DNA of 13,085 nucleotides from Candidatus Methylomirabilia bacterium. GTDB lineage: Bacteria > Methylomirabilota > Methylomirabilia > Rokubacteriales > CSP1-6. Every line of letters starts with the position of its first letter. Positions within the stretch are counted from its first letter, which is position 1. Location: NCBI GenBank assembly GCA_041497895.1, contig JBGQHJ010000134.1, positions 1-13,085 of the forward strand, written 5' to 3'. A program made the position numbers. Positions 6,001-12,000 of this stretch are shown one piece after another.

Positions 6001-9000
6001 GAACGGATCGCCGCCGATCTCGGCCAGCTCGCTCGCCACCAGCTCGCAGCCCGCGCCGAGCCGCCGCAGCTCGGCGAGCGCGTGGACCTCGTTGCCGGCC
6101 GGCACCGGGGTGTGGGTGGTGAACACGATGGACCGGCGCGCCTTGCGCCACGCGTCGTGGAAGCGGCTGCCGGTCTCCATCCGGTCCGCGATCAGCTCGA
6201 TCCCGGCGAAGACCGCGTGCCCCTCGTTGAAGTGGTAGAGCTCGACCGGGAGGTGCAGCGCCCGGAGCGCGCGCACCCCCCCGATGCCGAGCAGCATCTC
6301 CTGGGCGACCCGGCAGTCCGGTCGCGGGTCGTAGAGGCGGCGGGTGATCCACAGATCGCGCGGGTCGGTGGGCTCGAGCAGGTAGAGGGGGGCGATGGCG
6401 TAGCGGCCCACGCGCCACACGCGGCACTCCACCTCGCGCGCCGCGACCCGCACGCGCACGCGCGCCCCGGTGTCGGAGAGCACGTCGGTCTTCTGCTGGG
6501 CCCACTCGTCGTAGGGATACCCGTCGGAGCCGATGTGCTGCGAGGTGTAGCCCTGGCCCCAGCGGAGCCCCACGCCCACGACCGGCATTCCGAGATCCCC
6601 GGCCGACTTCATGAAGTCGCCCGCGAGCACTCCCAGGCCGCCCGCGTACGAGTGGAACTCCTCGTGCAGCCCGTACTCCATCGAGAAGTACGCGACCAGC
6701 GGCAACCGACTCTCCGAGTTCACGGCGCGAGTGCCCGTGTCGTGATCAGCCGCAGATAGGTGCTCACCGGATCGAGCATAGGCCATGCGTCCAGCAACGC
6801 AAAGCCCCGGGAGGCGCGGCGGTGGGGCGGGGGCGGCGGGGGCCCTCCCGCCGCCCCCACCCCACCGCCGCGGACACCGTCAGCGTCGTGAGCGCCAGGG
6901 CCCGGTGATCAGGCGCGCGCCGCGCTGCCAGCTGATGTACGCCCACGCCCATTCGAACAGCACCAGGAAGCGGTTGCGGAAGCCGATCAGGAACGCGATG
7001 TGCACGAAGAGCCACGCGAGCCAGGCCGGCAGGCCGGAGAGGCGGAGGCGCCCGACCACCGCGACCGCGGCCGCGCGGCCGATGGTGGCCATGCTGCCGC
7101 GGTCGCGGTAGCGGAACGCGTCGGTCGGCTCTCCGGCCAGATGGTGCAGCACGTTGCGGGCCGTCGCGCGCCCCTGCTGCAAGGCGACCGGCGCCAGCCC
7201 GGGTAACGGTCGGCCGTCGGCCCCGGTGAAGGAGCACAGGTCGCCGATGGCGAAGGCCTCGGGGTGGCCGGGGATCGAGAGGTCGCGCTCGACCAGCACG
7301 CGCCCGGCCCGGTCGAGCGGCACGCCCAGCGTGCGGGTGAGCGGCGCGGCGGCGACGCCGGCCGCCCACAGCACGGTGCGCGCGCGGATCTGCTCCCCGC
7401 CCAGCCAGACCGCGTCGGGGGTTACCCGCGTGACGGTGGCGCCGGTGCGCACCTCGACCCCGATGCGCGCGAGCGCGGCGGCGGCGCGCGCGGGCAGGGG
7501 ATCGGGGAAGGCGGCCAGGACGCGGGGGCTGCCCTCGAGCAGCACGATCCGCGCCTTGGTGGGGTCGATCAGGCGGAAGTCGCGCGCGATGGTCTCGCGC
7601 GAGATCTCGGCCAGGGCCCCGGCCAGCTCCACCCCGGTCGGGCCGCCGCCGATCACCACCGAGGTGAGCAGCGCGCGCTGCTCGGCGCCGTCCTGCTCCC
7701 GCTCGGCCTCCTCGTAGGCCAGCAGCACGCGGCGCCGGATCTCGAGCGCGTCCTCCAGGGTCTTGAGGCTCGGGGCCAGCGGCTCCCAGTCGTCGTGGCC
7801 GAAGTAGGAGTGGCCGGCGCCCGCGGCGAGCACGAGCGCGTCGTAGGGCATCGCGCCCTCGTCGAGGACGAGGCGTCGGCCGGCCAGGTCCACCGACACG
7901 ACCTCGGCCAGGAACACGGTGACGTTCGGGGCGCGGCGCAGGATGGAGCGAAGCGGGGTCGCGATGTCGGACGGGTTGAGGGCCGCGGTGGCCACCTGGT
8001 AGAGCAGGGGCTGGAAGAGATGATGGTTGCGCCGGTCGAGGAGGGTGACGCGGACCGGCCGGTTCGCGAGCGCGCGGGCCGCGTAGAGCCCGCCGAATCC
8101 GCCGCCCACGATGACCACGTGCGGATGCCCGTCGCGGTCGCTCACGGACTCATCTTCCGGGGGACCTCGGACGGTGTCAACCGAGCGCGAGCCGCGGCCG
8201 GCTTGACAGGACGCGGGCTTCGCCCTAGGGTGAGCGCACACAGGAGGAGTCGCTCATGACCGCGAGGATCTCGTCACAGCGCTACGCCGTCGAGGGTTTC
8301 CAGGAGGCGCTCGACCTCTGCTACAGCCGGGGATGGACCGACGGCCTGCCGGTGGTGCCGCCGACCGAGCCGGCGGTGCGGGCCATGCTCGACGCGGTCG
8401 CGCTCGAGCCCGACGCGCAGGTCGCCTTCATCACCAACCGACAGGTGGCGATCTCCGCCGAGAAGGTCGCGATCAACGCGGTGATGGCGGGCTGCCGGCC
8501 CGAGTACATGCCGGTGGTGGTGGCCGCGATCGAGGGCATCGCCGATCCCCGGTGGGGCTATCACGGGCCGGCCACGTCCACCGGGAGCGCGGCGGTCCTC
8601 ACGATCGTCAACGGGCCCGTCGCCAAGCGGCTCGACTTCAACTCGGGCGACAATCTCTTCGCGCCGGGCTGGCGGGCGAACGCCACCGTCGGGCGCGCGG
8701 TGCGGCTGGTGATGCGCAACGTGATCGGGACGATGCCCGGACGGCTCGACCGCGGGACTTTCGGCCATCCGGGCCGCTACACGTACGTGATGGCCGAGAA
8801 CGAGGCGGAGAGCCCGTGGACACCGCTGCACGTCGAGCGGGCCGGCTGCCGGCCCACCGACAGCGCGGTCACGGTCATGGCCGCGCTGGCCCCGATCCAG
8901 TTCTACAACCAGCTCTCGAGCACCGCGGCCGGCGTGCTCGGCACGCTCTGCGACACGATGCGGTATCCCGGGCAGATCGGACAGCCCAACTACTGCGTGG

Positions 9001-12000
9001 TGCTGGCCGGCGAGCACATGCGCACGATCGCGGCCGACGGCTGGTCCAAGGCCGACATCCGCAAGTTCATCTTCGAGAACTCCACGAACACGGTGGCGCA
9101 CTTCAAGCGGACCGCGCGGATGCCCGGCGGGGTGAAGCCGGAGGACGAGGCCACGAGCCGGCCGATCGTGCAGTCGCCGGACGACATCCTGGTGGTGGCG
9201 GCGGGGGGGCGCGCCGGCTCCTTCTCGTGCTTCATCCCGGGCTGGGCGAGCCGCACCTCGTCGGAAGCAGTGACGGTGGTCATCAAAGAGAGGAGCGCAT
9301 GATGGCGGGATTCGAGATCCTCGACCCCACGGTCGAGCCGCGGCGACAGCCGCTCACGTACGTGCCGCGCCCGGATTCGCTCAAGGGCAAGCGCATCGGA
9401 CTGGTGGAGAACACCAAGTTCAACTCGGACAAGCTGCTGCAGAAGATCGGGGTCATCCTCAAGACCGAGTACGGCGCCGCCGAGGCGCGGATGTGGCGCA
9501 AGCACAACTCGAGCGTGCCGGCCCACAAGGAGATCATCGACGACGCCAAGCAGACCGTGGACGTCGTCGTCGCCGGCATCGGCGACTGAGGGTCCTGCTC
9601 GTCGGGCAGTGTGCTCGACGGAATCCTGTTCGAGAAGATCGGCGTCCCCGCCGCGTCCATCGTGACCGACGTCTTCGAGGCCACCGGGCACGCCATGGCC
9701 CAGTCGTGGGGCGTCCCGGAGTACAGGTTCCTCTCGGTGCCGCATCCGATCGCGAACCTCACCGACGCCGAGCTGGACGCGCGGGCCCGCACGATCGCCC
9801 CCGAGGTCGTGCGACTGCTGCTGAAGGGCCAGGAAGGCTAGAACACAAACAAACACAACACGGCCCGCCGCATGCCAGACGACTCCGCCTACCGTCCGCC
9901 GTTCTGGTACCGGGGCCGGCACCTCCAGACGCTGTGGGGGCCGCTGGTGCGCCACTGGCGGCGGCCCCCGCTGCGGCGCGAGCGGCTCGAGACGCCCGAC
10001 GGCGACTTCGTCGATCTCGACTGGCTCGCCGGCGCCCCCGAGTCCGGCCCCGTGGTCCTGATCCTCCACGGCCTCGAGGGATCGTCGAATTCTCACTACG
10101 CGCGCGGCCTGCTGCGCGGAGCGGGGCGGCTCGGCTGGCGCCCCGCCGTGCTCCACTTCCGCTCGTGTAGCGGCGAGGTGAACCGGCTCCCGCGGCTGTA
10201 CCACTCGGGCGACACCCGCGATCTCGAGTGGGTGCTCGAGCGGCTGCAGAAGCGCGAGGCCGATCCCCGGATCGGCCTGATCGGGATCTCGCTGGGCGGC
10301 AACGTGGTGCTGAAGTGGCTCGGGGAGCAGGGCGAGGCCGCGCCCGCCGCGGTGGTGGGCTCGGTCGCGATCTCGACCCCGTTCGACCTGGCCGCGTGCG
10401 CGGAGGTGCTGGACCGCGGCTTCAACCGCGCGGTCTACACCGGGAGCTTCCTGCGCACCATGAAGGCCAAGGTGCGGGCCAAGACCCATCTCTACGACGG
10501 CCGGATCGACGTGCCCGCGGTGCTGCGCTCGCGCACCTTCGCGGAGTACGACCGGTGGTTCACCGCGCCGCTGAACGGCTTCGCCGACGAGCGCGACTAC
10601 TGGAGCCGGGCGAGCTGCGGGCCCTTTCTCGAGCGCGTCCGGCGCCCCACGTTGCTGATCAACGCGACCAACGATCCGTTCCTGCCCGGGGAGCGCCTTC
10701 CCGCGGCGGCGGTCGCGCGATCGCACTGGCTCGAGGCGGCCTTCGTGGAGCAGGGCGGGCACGTGGGATTTCTGGACGGTCCGCTCGGGGGCTCGTCGTG
10801 GGCGGAGCGGCGCGCCCTCGCGTTCCTCCGGCGCCTTCTGCTACCATGACCGCCGTGCTGCGCGACGCGTACGGCCTGGCCGTCTCGACCTCGTCCCGCC
10901 CCGCGGTCGACGCCCACGACCGGGGCGTGCGCGCGCTCCTGGGCTTCGGGGCCGACACCGTGGAGTGCTTCCGCCAGGCGCTCGCCGCCGACCCCGACTT
11001 CGTGCTGGCCCGCGCCGCCCTCGCGGTCGCGCTCTACCTGGACGAGCAGATCCCGGCGGCCCGGACCGAGATGGAGCGGGCGATCGCGGACGGGACCGCC
11101 CAGGCCGCGTCGCTCACCGCTCGCGAGCGCCGGCACCTGGAGGCCCTGCGCCTCTTCGTGGGCGGGCGCGGCAACGACGCCATCGCGGTGATGCAGGAGA
11201 TCCTGGGTGAGTTCCCGCGCGACGTGCTGCTGATGCAGCGCCTCTACTACATCTACTTCTGGCAGGGGCGCTCGGCCGAGATGCTCGAGGTGACCCGCGC
11301 GGTGCTGCCGGCCCTGGCCGACGACGGCTACGCCCTCGGCTATCACGCCTTCGCGCTCGAGGAGAATCGGCGCTTCGACGAGGCGTTGCCGCTCGCCGAG
11401 CGGGCGGTCGCGCTGAACCCGCGGGACGCCTGGGCGGTGCACGCCATCGCCCACGTGCACTACGAGCGGGGCGACAATCGTCGCGGGATCGAGAGCCTGC
11501 CGGGGCGGATCCGTCCCTGCGATCACCTGGGCTACTTCCGGAACCACCTGCTCTGGCACCTGGCCCTGCTCCACCTGGCCGAGGGCGACTACGAGCGCGG
11601 CGGGCGGCTGTTCGAGAGCGTGTTCGGCCGCATCCCGATCGCGATCGCCTCCGACCTGCAAGACTCGGTGGCCCTGGCGTGGCGTCTCGATCTCTTCGGC
11701 CGTCCGGATCCACGCCGCTGGGCCAAGCTCGGCGAGGCGGCGCGGCGGTGGCTCGACATGCCGTTGCTGCTCTTCCACGACCTGCACGTGGGGATGGCGC
11801 TCGCGGCGGCGGGCGACTGGAGCAGTGCGTCGCTCCAGCTCGACCGGCTCCGGCAGCGCGGGGCCAGGTCGAAGAACCCCACGCTCGCCGGGGTGGTGGT
11901 GCCGCTCATGGAGGGGCTGCACGCCTTCGCCCGCGGCGACTACGCGGCCGCGGTGACGCGCATCGAGCCCGTCGAGGCGCGCATCGTCGAGGTGGGCGGC

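What a model noticed while it worked through the whole genome (the two positions that open the first line are those of the whole stretch)
8256..9841. UGSC selenoprotein + unnamed 350-aa partner: 9 modules, GrdB/PrdB-like core
Nine loci hold a UGSC-family gene with an in-frame TGA (each called as two genes) beside, or fused to, an unannotated ~350-aa protein with 13 paralogs here. I read the pair as a two-subunit selenoenzyme whose Sec subunit is a minimal relative of the catalytic selenoprotein B (GrdB/PrdB) of Stickland reductases and whose partner is the substrate-binding subunit, multiplied for different substrates. That would give a partner, a homology and a testable function to one of the most abundant orphan selenoprotein families (in >=9,700 species genomes).
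Evidence so far: Pfam UGSC HMM 1-92 on the first call and 101-171 on the second at 7 loci, and HMM 1-92 alone on the first call at the other 2 (C54, C134:3064) (pfam.tsv, call 15); read-through gives D/H/C-U-G/S-S/T-C at one column in 9 of 9; hairpin 13-16 nt after UGA; selA, selB, selD, tRNA-Sec present. Loci: C22:34844-36420, C50:21284-22899, C54:12363-13944, C114:9050-10798 (fused), C134:3064-4668 (fused), C134:8256-9841, C144:8407-9974, C193:665-2308 (fused), C250:1422-2998. Partner: 13 hits to own HMM E<=1e-61, no Pfam/NCBIfam at E<=10/0.01, >=8000 homologs, none with a functional name among the 120 listed, no PDB sequence relative, AF2 pLDDT 82 with only weak fold matches. UGSC model pLDDT 89: flavodox [...]
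(Added by a program. Inside this text positions count along the whole contig: contig position 1 is position 1 of the stretch shown here. "Call 12" and the like, gene names such as g00115 and contig names such as C1 are that model's own, and its searches are not shown. The text may have been shortened before it was handed on; [...] marks where a part breaks off. The agent that wrote the report below was given it as the finding of a first reader that could run no searches.)

Follow-up and report, generated by a model that had tools for sequence, protein, structure and literature searches.

The report
UGSC selenoprotein with its partner enzyme
Two adjacent genes encode a small selenium-containing protein and an unnamed 350-residue protein that almost certainly work as one redox enzyme, giving a widespread orphan selenoprotein family a partner, a relative (glycine and proline reductase protein B) and testable chemistry.

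Summary
Window 8256-9302 encodes an unnamed 348-aa protein. Window 9302-9841 encodes a UGSC-family selenoprotein with an in-frame TGA (9587-9589, motif GD-U-GSC) followed by a covarying hairpin. The genome has 9 such modules (3 fused) and 13 partner copies, plus selA, selB, selD and tRNA-Sec.

The pairing is general. Of 80 partner loci from many phyla, 61 have UGSC within 300 nt, and 58 of those carry the TGA. Fusions occur in both orders, and paralogue pairs co-diverge (Mantel r 0.94).

Figure S1A of the 2008 GOS paper shows the partner is "Unknown_1", so the fusion was already published.

What is new here:
- UGSC is Rossmann/flavodoxin-like and homologous to the Sec-bearing C-terminal domain of GrdB/PrdB (hhalign 95.5-96.1%, Sec on Sec; controls at most 2.4%).
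- The partner has no detectable relation to GrdE/PrdA and no clear solved fold. It has two conserved Cys and invariant R147 and E181.
- Some lineages fuse the partner to thioredoxin-like, FTR or TrxR modules while keeping UGSC.

Best reading: a non-pyruvoyl, Stickland-like two-subunit selenoreductase fed by thioredoxin-type donors. The substrate is unknown.

The parts
8256..9302 (+). Partner gene, 348 aa, an unnamed family equal to 'Unknown_1' of the 2008 GOS paper. A GGAGGAG ribosome-binding site lies upstream. It has Cys80 in the motif MAGC. It lacks the second conserved Cys, with Val at column 178.
   Evidence: ORF and translation. No Pfam or NCBIfam hit. Family size. AF2 pLDDT 94.5. Identity with Unknown_1. 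Cys columns.
9302..9841 (+). UGSC-family selenoprotein gene, 179 aa, with Sec96 and Cys99. Its start overlaps the partner's stop codon.
   Evidence: AF2 pLDDT 93.6 with five beta-alpha units and Sec at the start of helix 3.
9587..9589 (+). In-frame TGA read as selenocysteine.
   Evidence: A TGA stands at this column in 9 of 9 genomic copies and in 58 of the 61 adjacent UGSC genes in other genomes.
9599..9621 (+). SECIS-like hairpin. The 10-bp stem is columns 13-22 with 26-35 counted from the U of UGA. The core 6 bp is 9603-9608 with 9612-9617. The apical loop is G-U-G.
   Evidence: Fold. Covariation on 77 sequences. No Rfam family matches.
3064..4668 (+). Second module in the window. One frame encodes a UGSC domain (TGA at 3349-3351, motif AD-U-GSC) fused to a partner domain. 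That domain has Ala in place of Cys80 and keeps the second Cys.
9872..10849 (+). Alpha/beta-hydrolase gene directly downstream. It is kept after UGSC in the three closest orthologous loci that have enough flank (L043, L044, L045). It may belong to the same operon.
   Evidence: Pfam Abhydrolase_1. NCBIfam PRK10985-like at 246 bits, below the cut-off of 267. Synteny.

Best explanation
The locus encodes a two-subunit selenoenzyme.

UGSC subunit. UGSC is a Rossmann/flavodoxin-like domain that descends from the same stock as the Sec-bearing C-terminal domain of selenoprotein B (GrdB/PrdB). Its U96-x-x-C99 sits at the N-terminus of helix 3.

Partner subunit. The 348-aa partner is non-homologous to GrdE/PrdA. 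I infer that it supplies the substrate pocket, built from the invariant or near-invariant residues D29, N142, R147, E181 and W188. It also supplies one or two cysteines (C80, C178) next to that pocket.

Proposed cycle, all inferred:
1. Sec96 acts as the nucleophile at a composite active site and reductively cleaves or reduces a small organic substrate.
2. Cys99, and/or the partner cysteines, resolve the selenium adduct to a selenenyl-sulfide.
3. A thioredoxin-type donor re-reduces it. In some lineages that donor is fused to the partner as a Redoxin CxxC domain, an FTR catalytic domain or a TrxR domain.

The 9 modules in this genome are read as isoenzymes for different substrates, which remain unknown.

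What is shown: the gene anatomy, the Sec decoding signals, the conserved pairing and fusions, the UGSC-GrdB homology, and the conserved residues.

What is inferred: physical binding, the composite active site, the direction of electron flow, and Sec acting on the substrate.

My odds: one functional unit about 0.9. UGSC homologous to the GrdB/PrdB Sec domain about 0.85. Sec acting on the substrate itself about 0.4.
For: Pairing:
- 9 of 9 UGSC genes in this genome lie beside or fused to a partner.
- 61 of 80 partner loci from many phyla have UGSC within 300 nt on the same strand, 58 of them with TGA.
- Of the 74 top-150 family representatives that are at least 400 aa, 43 carry UGSC. It is N-terminal in 39 and C-terminal in 4.
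- Identity matrices of the 9 UGSC paralogues and their 9 partners correlate. Mantel r is 0.94, reached by 3 of 20000 permutations. Without the near-identical pair r is 0.87, reached by 1 of 20000.

Homology:
- hhalign of UGSC (42 sequences) against GrdB-like selenoproteins (14 sequences, UxxCxxC, Pfam GRDB E 1e-73 to 1e-107) gives 95.5%, E 1.6e-8, 96 columns, with Sec aligned on Sec.
- Against GrdB-like plus PrdB-like sequences it gives 96.1%, E 3.5e-9.
- Reversed alignments give at most 1%. Four unrelated families, including Rossmann-fold SDRs, give at most 2.4%.
- The UGSC HMM hits the GrdB-like proteins over HMM positions 67-124.

Core role of UGSC:
- Redoxin-partner fusions still have a UGSC gene with D-U-G-S-C directly downstream, in 4 of 4 loci with enough flank.
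- GOS counted 255 Sec forms against 21 Cys forms (Table 2 of PMC2398784).
- For PrdB, the U151C variant is inactive (PMC11229817, passages).

Electron donors:
- The fused Redoxin domains carry CxxC, the TrxR domain carries CAVC, and the FTR-B domains carry CPC...CPC...CHC.

Partner:
- Of 253 domains, 251 keep at least one of two Cys columns (209 both, 34 only C80, 8 only C178).
- G79, G120, R147 and E181 are invariant to two decimals (1.00), and D29, N142 and W188 are at 98%.

Expression hint:
- Contigs from RNA libraries of 4 studies, 97-98% alike, bridge the gene junction in 4 of 4 runs. In 2 of 4 runs they bridge the UGA.
Against: - No experiment and no complex model exist. Complex prediction gave no result (see Tried and rejected).
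- Against PrdB-like sequences alone, hhalign reaches only 79% (65.7% with the smaller UGSC alignment). The UGSC HMM does not hit this genome's own PrdB-like gene at E<=1.
- UGSC lacks the third Cys of the GrdB UxxCxxC motif, and Pfam GRDB does not match it.
- No pyruvoyl-type subunit or GrdA is present, so the Stickland way of holding an amine substrate is missing.
- The two partner cysteines are not invariant. The focal partner lacks C178, and two fused copies in this genome lack C80.
- A U/C-x-x-C at a helix start, together with fused Trx, FTR and TrxR modules, fits plain disulfide relay chemistry equally well.
- Neighbouring genes vary and name no substrate.
- 13 of 80 partner loci show no UGSC in the held flank, among them all 6 Poribacteria loci. 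Three partner copies in this genome are solitary.
- The RNA-library contigs may contain DNA and do not show a single transcript.
Confidence: 0.4

Rival explanations
1. Dedicated redox relay. The partner is the enzyme proper and uses C80/C178 as its catalytic and resolving thiols. UGSC never touches the substrate. It only re-reduces the partner's disulfide or sulfenate, as a specialised, selenium-boosted stand-in for thioredoxin, and is itself reduced by TrxR, FTR or Trx.
For: - The UxxC lies at a helix N-terminus.
- The partner has two conserved Cys columns, and 251 of 253 domains keep at least one.
- Fusions to TrxR, FTR-B and Redoxin place the pair inside a thiol-disulfide chain. P0223 reads UGSC-partner-FTR-B, like FTR, then Trx, then target.
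- Cys forms of UGSC exist: 11 full-length Cys-type fusions among the 74 long representatives.
- The 2008 authors already proposed a redox role (PMC2398784).
Against: - Where a thioredoxin-like CxxC domain is already fused to the partner, UGSC with Sec is still encoded next to it (4 of 4 loci). A second mere relay would be redundant.
- Sec forms strongly outnumber Cys forms: 255 to 21 in GOS, and 58 of the 61 adjacent genes here carry TGA at the U position while the other 3 show no U/C-x-x-C motif match. This is unusual for simple disulfide exchange.
- UGSC's relatives GrdB and PrdB sit in catalytic cores, not in relays.
- 34 of 253 partner domains, including the focal one, lack the second Cys.
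Confidence: 0.3
2. Pyruvoyl variant of the Stickland scheme. The partner is a proenzyme that cleaves itself at Gly79-Cys80, as PrdA does at Cys421. This gives an N-terminal pyruvoyl group that holds an amine substrate for attack by Sec96.
For: - G79 is invariant and C80 is present in 96% of 253 domains.
- C80 lies in a short loop between helices 68-77 and 82-96.
- PrdA forms its pyruvoyl group by cysteinolysis and needs PrdB bound (PMC11229817).
- UGSC is homologous to the PrdB/GrdB Sec domain.
Against: - The partner has no sequence or profile similarity to GrdE/PrdA (0.1%) and no PF09338 hit.
- 10 of 253 domains lack Cys80, including 2 fused copies in this genome.
- No PrdH-like maturase was looked for or seen.
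- The idea rests on a motif resemblance that I recalled, not on a test.
Confidence: 0.08
3. Metal or iron-sulfur site. The partner is a remote relative of Fe-S hydro-lyases such as class I fumarate hydratase. C80 and C178, together with Sec96 and Cys99 of UGSC, ligate a shared cluster or metal, so the pair would be a lyase or hydratase rather than a reductase.
For: - The best full-length Foldseek matches of the partner model are class I fumarate hydratases: 6uqn_B at E 7.1e-5 and prob 0.80, and 7xky_A at E 1.5e-3.
- By VIA-align 2, 7xky_A scores Z 4.6 over 180 residues, L-serine dehydratase 3.6 and CyuA 3.7.
- Sec is a metal ligand in formate dehydrogenase and [NiFeSe] hydrogenase (recalled).
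Against: - TM-scores are 0.17-0.35 and Z is below 8, the range the tool itself calls common for unrelated folds.
- Only two Cys columns exceed 25% Cys in 253 domains, and 42 domains have only one of them.
- The fused Trx, TrxR and FTR modules point to dithiol chemistry.
Confidence: 0.07
4. No joint function. The two genes are merely neighbours, or the TGA is a true stop and the split calls are real.
For: - The two halves are called as separate genes in databases (one search shows many fragments).
- The hairpin's folding energy is not better than that of shuffles (z 0.54; z -2.2 to +2.0).
Against: - The Pfam match runs across the TGA at E 5.6e-59.
- The TGA is conserved at one column in 9 of 9 and 58 of 61 genes.
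- The hairpin covaries.
- The full Sec machinery is present.
- Fusions occur in both orders.
- Paralogue pairs co-diverge.
Confidence: 0.02

Closest known systems
Selenoprotein B of glycine/sarcosine/betaine reductase (GrdB, GrdF, GrdH) and of D-proline reductase (PrdB); Pfam GRDB PF07355
   Same: - Sec lies in U-x-x-C directly after a beta-strand and at the start of a helix.
- That helix is followed by E..G-(I/V)-P-T and a strand, then G.P...(V/I).HP(L/I)G.
- Profile-profile homology over 72-96 columns aligns Sec on Sec.
- It works with a second, larger protein encoded next to it.
- Sec forms predominate.
- A thioredoxin-type electron supply is plausible.
   Different: - UGSC is only 179 aa and lacks the 200-350 residue N-terminal part that Pfam GRDB models. 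That model ends just before the Sec.
- UGSC has no third Cys of UxxCxxC.
- Its partner is unrelated to GrdE/PrdA.
- This genome has no GrdA or pyruvoyl subunit.
- It occurs in soil, groundwater and marine lineages such as Methylomirabilota, Dehalococcoidia, Binatia and Burkholderiales, not in amino-acid fermenters.
UGSC/Unknown_1 fusion selenoproteins of the Global Ocean Sampling data (Zhang and Gladyshev 2008, PMC2398784, Figure S1A)
   Same: It is the same two families. The printed Unknown_1 alignment (AVNGVMAGCRPEYMP...NGP) matches the partner, and the C114 copy matches almost letter for letter. The order UGSC then Unknown_1 is as in window 3064-4668.
   Different: - The paper shows only a 60-column block of the fused domain. 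[quoted passage not shown]
- Here the unfused operon form is the commoner one, both gene orders occur, and the family has 8394 cluster representatives.
- UGSC models as Rossmann/flavodoxin-like and is tied to GrdB/PrdB.
Thioredoxin-dependent reductases with fused or dedicated redox partners, such as methionine sulfoxide reductase-Trx fusions, and the FTR or TrxR, then Trx, then target chains (recalled as a class)
   Same: - The partner is fused in some lineages to a Redoxin CxxC domain, an FTR catalytic domain or a TrxR domain.
- It has two conserved cysteines.
   Different: - The partner fold has no clear solved relative (best Z 5.5).
- A selenoprotein of GrdB ancestry is an obligatory extra component, even when a Trx-like domain is fused.
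PrdB-like selenoproteins of non-fermenting bacteria, such as this genome's C29 gene (VVLVPS-U-PVC) beside a CCG-domain protein
   Same: - Same superfamily and the same UxxC placement.
- Also orphan in function.
- Present in 41 of 61 genomes searched in the phylum.
   Different: - Longer, at about 308 aa, and matches Pfam GRDB.
- Has a different neighbour, a CCG/HdrD-like protein rather than the partner family.

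Membership tests
UGSC family (Pfam PF24696, NCBIfam NF041046) | Profile match above the curated cut-off over the whole domain | tested here: met
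   PF24696 matches positions 1-171 of 172 at E 5.6e-59 and 199.6 bits (cut-off 25). NF041046 scores 145.5 bits (cut-off 125)..
UGSC family (Pfam PF24696, NCBIfam NF041046) | U-G-S-C motif with Sec encoded by an in-frame TGA | tested here: met
   GD-U-GSC at 9587-9598. The same column holds TGA in 9 of 9 genomic copies.
Bacterial selenoprotein gene | SECIS-type hairpin just downstream of the UGA, with a G/U-containing apical loop | tested here: met
   The helix is supported by covariation on 77 sequences. G23 and U24 of the loop are at least 90% conserved. No Rfam model matches. Binding by SelB was not tested.
Bacterial selenoprotein gene | Sec-decoding machinery in the genome | tested here: met
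   tRNA-Sec. selA at 565.7 bits. selB at 359.9 bits. selD at 333.3 and 277.5 bits.
GRDB (selenoprotein B, PF07355) | Match to the Pfam GRDB model | tested here: not met
   P0001 has no PF07355 hit at E<=10. The model ends just before the Sec and mostly covers a part that UGSC lacks.
GRDB (selenoprotein B, PF07355) | Homology of the Sec-bearing domain, with Sec aligned on Sec | tested here: met
   hhalign gives 95.5% (E 1.6e-8, 96 columns) against GrdB-like sequences, 96.1% against the combined set and 79.3% against PrdB-like sequences. Controls give at most 2.4%.
GRDB (selenoprotein B, PF07355) | UxxCxxC motif | tested here: not met
   The focal protein has U-G-S-C-S-S-G. The GrdB-like proteins of the phylum have U-G-T-C-N-R-C or U-G-T-S-T-R-C.
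Stickland-type glycine or D-proline reductase complex | Pyruvoyl proprotein subunit (GrdE/PrdA, PF09338) encoded with protein B | tested here: not met
   No PF09338 match in the genome at E<=1 (the genome is 86.8% complete). The partner against GrdE-like sequences gives hhalign 0.1%. True GrdB/GrdE-like pairs do exist elsewhere in the phylum, in 12 of 61 genomes.
Stickland-type glycine or D-proline reductase complex | Selenoprotein A (GrdA, PF04723) | tested here: not met
   The best match is E 0.27 at 12.7 bits, below the cut-off.
Thioredoxin-fold selenoproteins (the 2008 proposal for UGSC) | Thioredoxin fold around the UxxC | tested here: inconclusive
   The AF2 model (pLDDT 93.6) has five successive beta-alpha units. 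The listed matches in Foldseek and VIA are flavodoxin-, CheY-, G-domain- and SDR/Rossmann-type, with Z up to 10.2. No thioredoxin appears in the lists shown.
Fe-S hydro-lyases (class I fumarate hydratase type), considered for the partner | Three conserved Cys ligands for a [4Fe-4S] cluster | tested here: not met
   Only two alignment columns exceed 25% Cys in 253 domains.
Fe-S hydro-lyases (class I fumarate hydratase type), considered for the partner | Shared fold | tested here: inconclusive
   Foldseek E 7.1e-5 but TM 0.17-0.35. VIA Z 4.3-4.6.

The most novel reading that the evidence does not exclude
UGSC-partner modules are a very large, so far unrecognised class of non-pyruvoyl, selenium-dependent reductases descended from the Stickland selenoprotein B. 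In aerobic and microaerobic soil, groundwater and ocean bacteria, the Sec of UGSC would attack a carbon (or heteroatom) of small alpha-substituted acids held by a partner of novel fold. Thioredoxin-type donors would recycle the enzyme. Each of the up to 12 paralogues per genome would serve a different substrate. This would extend Stickland-type C-X bond reduction far beyond fermenting clostridia and explain why UGSC is among the most abundant environmental selenoproteins.
Probability: 0.22. Interest if true: 0.85.

Novelty: new variant of a known kind. Interest (0 to 1): 0.62.

Why it matters
UGSC is among the most abundant prokaryotic selenoprotein families in ocean metagenomes. It ranked fifth in number of Sec sequences in GOS (Table 2 of PMC2398784). 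It is still listed as uncharacterised in the 2022 and 2026 reviews (passages).

This work ties UGSC to an obligatory partner and to the GrdB/PrdB lineage. It also identifies likely electron donors and names a short list of residues: U96 and C99 in UGSC, and C80, C178, R147 and E181 in the partner. That turns an orphan into a directly testable two-protein enzyme.

If Sec acts on the substrate, Stickland-like reductive chemistry is widespread in non-fermenting bacteria that process complex organic matter.

The hairpin also gives a clear example of an RNA signal shaping protein sequence. The Ser codon AGU is fixed in the loop, and the codon pairs Gly/Leu, Trp/His and Cys/His covary because they base-pair.

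Tried and rejected
- **Complex prediction.** A second, different job made only of protein-search results (halves of the natural Cys-type fusion P0138, alignment A6) was answered 'tool not available'. There is no verdict on binding from this tool.
- **PDB by sequence.** Nothing meaningful for UGSC (best E 0.043), for the partner (best E 0.21) or for the PrdB-like protein.
- **Solved Prd or Grd structure.** PMC11229817 (passages) holds no occurrence of 'PDB', 'crystal structure' or 'cryo-EM', and its authors used ColabFold. A fold comparison with selenoprotein B therefore could not be made.
- **Fold searches of the partner.** No match reaches Z 8. The C-terminal 207-335 resembles chorismate mutase or YjgF-type units (Z 5.5). 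Class I fumarate hydratase reaches Z 4.3-4.6. The Fe-S idea was set aside for lack of a third Cys column.
- **ESM Atlas.** Only the protein's own kind was returned, one cluster auto-named 'Thioredoxin family protein'.
- **Source names.** All are 'hypothetical protein', except one 'peroxiredoxin' for a Redoxin fusion.
- **Rfam.** No SECIS family matched.
- **Hairpin energy against shuffles.** Not significant in this 71% G+C genome. I relied on covariation instead.
- **Partner against GrdE-like, GrdB N-terminal part and UGSC.** hhalign gives 0.1%, 4% and 0.1%.
- **Apparent long N- or C-terminal extensions of the three solitary partner copies (C87, C34, C231).** Their translations are low-complexity and have no Pfam hit, so I read them as non-coding.
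- **Constant third gene.** None was found among 91 loci. The commonest neighbours are luciferase-like monooxygenase (17 loci), SDR (17), NHL-repeat protein (12) and CoA-transferase III (7).
- **Divergent Pyr_redox_2 gene (6880-8241).** It is kept only in the syntenic locus L042, so I do not count it as part of the module.
- **First hhalign.** With the small UGSC alignment it gave only 65.7%. The later figures use 42 UGSC rows.
- **Not tested.** How often a UGSC gene lacks a partner outside this genome, and the count of at least 9,700 species.

Full report
**1. What is at the coordinates**

The window is contig C134 of a 5.11-Mb, 280-contig draft genome with 71% G+C. The closest database proteins are named after Methylomirabilota/Rokubacteria.

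Window 8256-9302 (+) is an ORF of 348 aa preceded by GGAGGAG. Its TGA stop overlaps the ATG of a second ORF. That ORF runs to a TGA at 9587-9589 and, read through, on to TAG at 9839-9841.

Read with TGA as Sec, the 179-aa product matches Pfam UGSC over 1-171 of 172 positions at E 5.6e-59. It matches NCBIfam NF041046 above its cut-off. Sec96 lies in GD-U-GSC. The 348-aa protein has no Pfam or NCBIfam match even at E<=10.

**2. The genome-wide claim**

tblastn and HMM searches over the six-frame translation agree on the counts:
- 9 UGSC loci (E<=1.5e-50; the next hit is E 0.024).
- 13 partner copies (E<=1.6e-83; nothing else up to E 1).

All 9 UGSC genes carry a TGA at one column, in D/H/C-U-G/S-S/T-C. 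All 9 lie beside or fused to a partner:
- Partner then UGSC at C134:8256, C144, C22 and C250.
- UGSC then partner at C50 and C54.
- One fused frame at window 3064-4668, C193 and C114.

Of the four extra partner copies, one follows the C114 fusion. Three are solitary (C87, C34, C231), and their seeming extensions translate to low-complexity junk.

tRNA-Sec, selA, selB and two selD genes are present.

**3. The decoding signal**

Downstream of the UGA, 7 of the 9 copies fold into the same hairpin. Folding energy alone is not better than that of shuffles in this G+C-rich DNA, and Rfam has no matching family.

I therefore aligned 77 distinct 48-nt stretches, 9 from this genome and 68 from other genomes, in fixed register. 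The results:
- The core helix, columns 17-22 with 26-31, is paired in 92-97% of sequences.
- Pair 19-29 shows 18 double changes. Pair 21-27 is CG in 54 sequences and GC in 21.
- The covariation score is 0.233, against a shuffled mean of 0.095 (0 of 500 shuffles reach it) and at most 0.091 for slid partners.
- The loop holds G23 and U24, each at least 90% conserved. This fixes the rare Ser codon AGU.

The paired codons explain the amino-acid couples Gly/Leu, Trp/His and Cys/His seen after the motif. The outer four pairs of the 10-bp stem drawn for the window are paired in only 21-62% of sequences.

**4. The pairing is general, and partly published**

Figure S1A of PMC2398784 is held as text. 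It aligns the domain called Unknown_1, fused behind UGSC in ocean reads, as AVNGVMAGCRPEYMP...NGP. That is the partner's most conserved block, and the C114 copy matches the reads almost letter for letter. The fusion was thus drawn in 2008 (main-text passages). The authors guessed a Trx-like fold and a redox role.

Reviews of 2022 and 2026 still list UGSC as uncharacterised (passages). The 2007 paper calls it a selenoprotein of unknown function. A full-text search for 'UGSC' with 'selenoprotein' returns 9 papers. I read passages of four of them and saw no mention of a GrdB relation in those passages.

New evidence on the pairing:
- A profile of the 13 paralogues finds 8394 cluster representatives at E<=1e-3 and 2732 at E<=1e-30.
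- I scanned with Pfam the 74 proteins of at least 400 aa among the 150 listed. 43 carry UGSC: 11 as a full Cys-type domain at the N-terminus, 28 as the post-Sec fragment at the N-terminus (Sec forms called from after the TGA), and 4 as the pre-Sec fragment at the C-terminus.
- Of the rest, 4 carry AhpC-TSA/Redoxin and 1 carries Pyr_redox_2. FeThRed_B occurs in 2, one of which also has UGSC. 25 have no family; about six of these are roughly 710-aa tandem partners.
The best 80 loci come from records titled Methylomirabilota, Burkholderiales or Betaproteobacteria, Dehalococcoidia or Chloroflexota, Binatia, Poribacteria, SAR324, Entotheonella, Alphaproteobacteria and Acidobacteriota.
- Of these 80 loci, 61 have UGSC within 300 nt on the same strand, 58 with the TGA. 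In 6 it lies farther off or on the other strand. 13 have none in the held flank, among them all 6 Poribacteria loci and some loci cut by contig ends. These 80 are the closest relatives of the query, so the fraction is not a census.
- Within this genome, pairwise identities of the 9 UGSC copies and of their 9 partners correlate. Mantel r is 0.94, reached by 3 of 20000 permutations. Without one of the near-identical C22/C250 pair, r is 0.87, reached by 1 of 20000. Modules diverged as units.
- In the phylum sample, 45 of 61 genomes have UGSC. All 32 of 32 genomes in the window's family have it, with 2-12 matches each. This tally includes the genomes G058 and G029, flagged as unpublished.

**5. 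What UGSC is**

With 42 sequences, AF2 gives pLDDT 93.6. The model has five beta-alpha units, with Sec96 directly after strand 3 at the start of helix 3. Foldseek and VIA-align 2 return only generic flavodoxin-, CheY-, G-domain- and Rossmann-type matches, with Z up to 10.2 and 159 chains at Z>=8. No thioredoxin appears in the lists shown.

The genome also encodes a PrdB-like selenoprotein on C29 (VVLVPS-U-PVC). The Pfam GRDB match to it ends three residues before the Sec. Other genomes of the phylum hold true GrdB-type selenoproteins (U-G-T-C-N-R-C or U-G-T-S-T-R-C; Pfam GRDB E 1e-73 to 1e-107) next to GrdE-type genes.

Profile-profile comparison of UGSC (42 rows) gives:
- 95.5%, E 1.6e-8, 96 columns against 14 GrdB-like sequences.
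- 79.3%, E 1.5e-5 against the PrdB-like alignment built from the loci.
- 96.1%, E 3.5e-9 against both sets together.

In each case Sec aligns on Sec, Cys on Cys, and E..GIPT on E..GIPT. An earlier run with 20 UGSC rows gave 65.7%.

Controls: reversed target alignments give at most 1.0% (E>=0.056). Four unrelated neighbour families, among them Rossmann-fold SDRs, give at most 2.4% (E>=0.02).

One row of the PrdB-like alignment comes from G058, which is flagged unpublished. The 95.5% figure does not depend on it.

UGSC is thus best described as the free-standing Sec domain of the selenoprotein-B lineage. It is not a member of Pfam GRDB (no hit). It lacks the third Cys of UxxCxxC.

**6. What the partner is**

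With 81 sequences, AF2 gives pLDDT 94.5 and pTM 0.93. No solved structure is clearly related:
- Foldseek's best matches are class I fumarate hydratases (E 7.1e-5, but TM 0.17-0.25), then 7xky_A and cyanuric acid hydrolases.
- VIA-align 2 against 48,161 chains peaks at Z 5.2, and its second look at Z 5.5. That match is a chorismate mutase or YjgF-type unit covering residues 207-335 only.

Profile comparison with GrdE-like proteins gives 0.1%, and with the GrdB N-terminal part 4%. The genome has no PF09338 and no GrdA (completeness 86.8%).

In 253 partner domains, only two columns are rich in Cys. C80 in MAGC is at 96%, and the column before AENE is at 85%. 209 domains have both, 34 only the first (the focal protein among them), 8 only the second and 2 neither. 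G79, G120, R147 and E181 are invariant to two decimals (1.00), and D29, N142 and W188 stand at 98%.

**7. Electron supply, and whether UGSC is replaceable**

The fused modules carry working motifs:
- Redoxin domains with D-C-A-T-C and D-C-P-T-C.
- A TrxR-like domain with C-A-V-C.
- FTR catalytic domains with CPC...CPC...CHC.

At first this suggested that thioredoxin-like domains replace UGSC. I tested this by fetching metagenome contigs that encode relatives of the Redoxin-partner fusion P0155. In 4 of the 4 loci with enough downstream DNA, a UGSC gene with GAT-TGA-GGN-TCN-TGY follows the fusion directly. A fifth locus ends 596 nt after the fusion. In two of these loci FadB-like and LarA-like genes follow.

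So the thioredoxin-like module is added to the pair, not exchanged for UGSC. Several facts tilt me towards UGSC as a catalytic core subunit fed by thioredoxin-type donors, as the thioredoxin system feeds glycine reductase:
- The strong excess of Sec over Cys forms: 255 to 21 in GOS, and 58 of the 61 adjacent genes here carry TGA at the U position while the other 3 show no U/C-x-x-C motif match.
- The catalytic role of the relatives.
- The inactivity of PrdB U151C (PMC11229817).

A pure relay role remains a serious rival.

**8. Context and expression**

No third gene is constant among 91 loci. The commonest neighbours are luciferase-like monooxygenases (17 loci), SDRs (17), NHL-repeat proteins (12) and CoA-transferase III (7). 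Amidase, FMN-dependent dehydrogenase, Zn-ADH, molybdenum hydroxylase, TctC and alpha/beta-hydrolases are rarer.

For the focal orthologue group, an alpha/beta-hydrolase follows UGSC in the window and in L043, L044 and L045.

Contigs from four metatranscriptomic libraries of four studies, 97-98% alike, bridge the partner/UGSC junction in all four runs. In two of them they bridge the UGA. This is compatible with co-transcription but does not prove it.

**9. Verdict**

- The pair is one unit (about 0.9).
- UGSC is a minimal selenoprotein-B relative (about 0.85).
- The partner as 'substrate-binding subunit' and a Stickland-like attack by Sec are plausible but unproven (about 0.4).
- The partner as such was already in print as Unknown_1.

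No complex prediction could be obtained.

Noticed in passing
window 9596-9622 and alignment A5: The SECIS-like stem constrains the protein. The Ser codon AGU is fixed in the apical loop of a 71% G+C genome. Codons 19-21 and 28-30 after the UGA covary as Gly/Leu, Trp/His and Cys/His because they base-pair.
   Followed up: partly
G000 C29:15221-16144 (-), loci L011 and L012: A PrdB-like selenoprotein (VVLVPS-U-PVC; the Pfam GRDB match ends just before the Sec) lies beside a CCG-domain (HdrD/GlpC-like) protein. Relatives occur in 41 of 61 genomes of the phylum, nearly all with one in-frame TGA.
   Followed up: partly
loci L134-L167 (other Methylomirabilota genomes): True GrdB-type selenoproteins (UxxCxxC, Pfam GRDB E down to 1e-107) lie next to GrdE-type genes (PF09338) in 12 of 61 genomes of a phylum not known for Stickland fermentation. 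None was found in the window's own genome.
   Followed up: partly
window 6880-8241 (-): A Pyr_redox_2/NDH-2-type flavoprotein is divergent from the partner gene. Its best NCBIfam model is the oxidoreductase domain that is fused to SelD in other bacteria (TIGR03169, 95 bits, far below the cut-off of 310). It is conserved only in the syntenic locus L042.
   Followed up: partly
G000 C142:378-1313 (-) and C2:22424-23332 (-): The genome has two selD genes. One has an in-frame TGA, so it is itself a selenoprotein. The other has none.
   Followed up: no
window 1759-3020 (-): A DUF3037 protein and a HipA-like kinase (HipA_2) are encoded side by side just upstream of the fused module. The ORF limits overlap and the starts are uncertain.
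   Followed up: no
P0155 and P0173 (Redoxin-partner fusions); loci L168 and L173: The linker between the Redoxin and partner domains holds a short shared motif, G-C-(G/A)-S-R, with an extra Cys. In the two loci I scanned, the fusion-UGSC pair is followed by FadB-like and LarA-like (lactate racemase family) genes, and a metallo-beta-lactamase-fold gene lies upstream.
   Followed up: no
loci L055-L060 (Poribacteria): These partner homologues have no UGSC within 6 kb, and their match to the profile breaks around positions 280-314. They may be a UGSC-independent branch.
   Followed up: no
P0124, P0128, P0129, P0134, P0147, P0148: Proteins of about 710 aa hold two partner domains in tandem. In each of them both domains keep C80 but have no Cys at the second-Cys column.
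   Followed up: no
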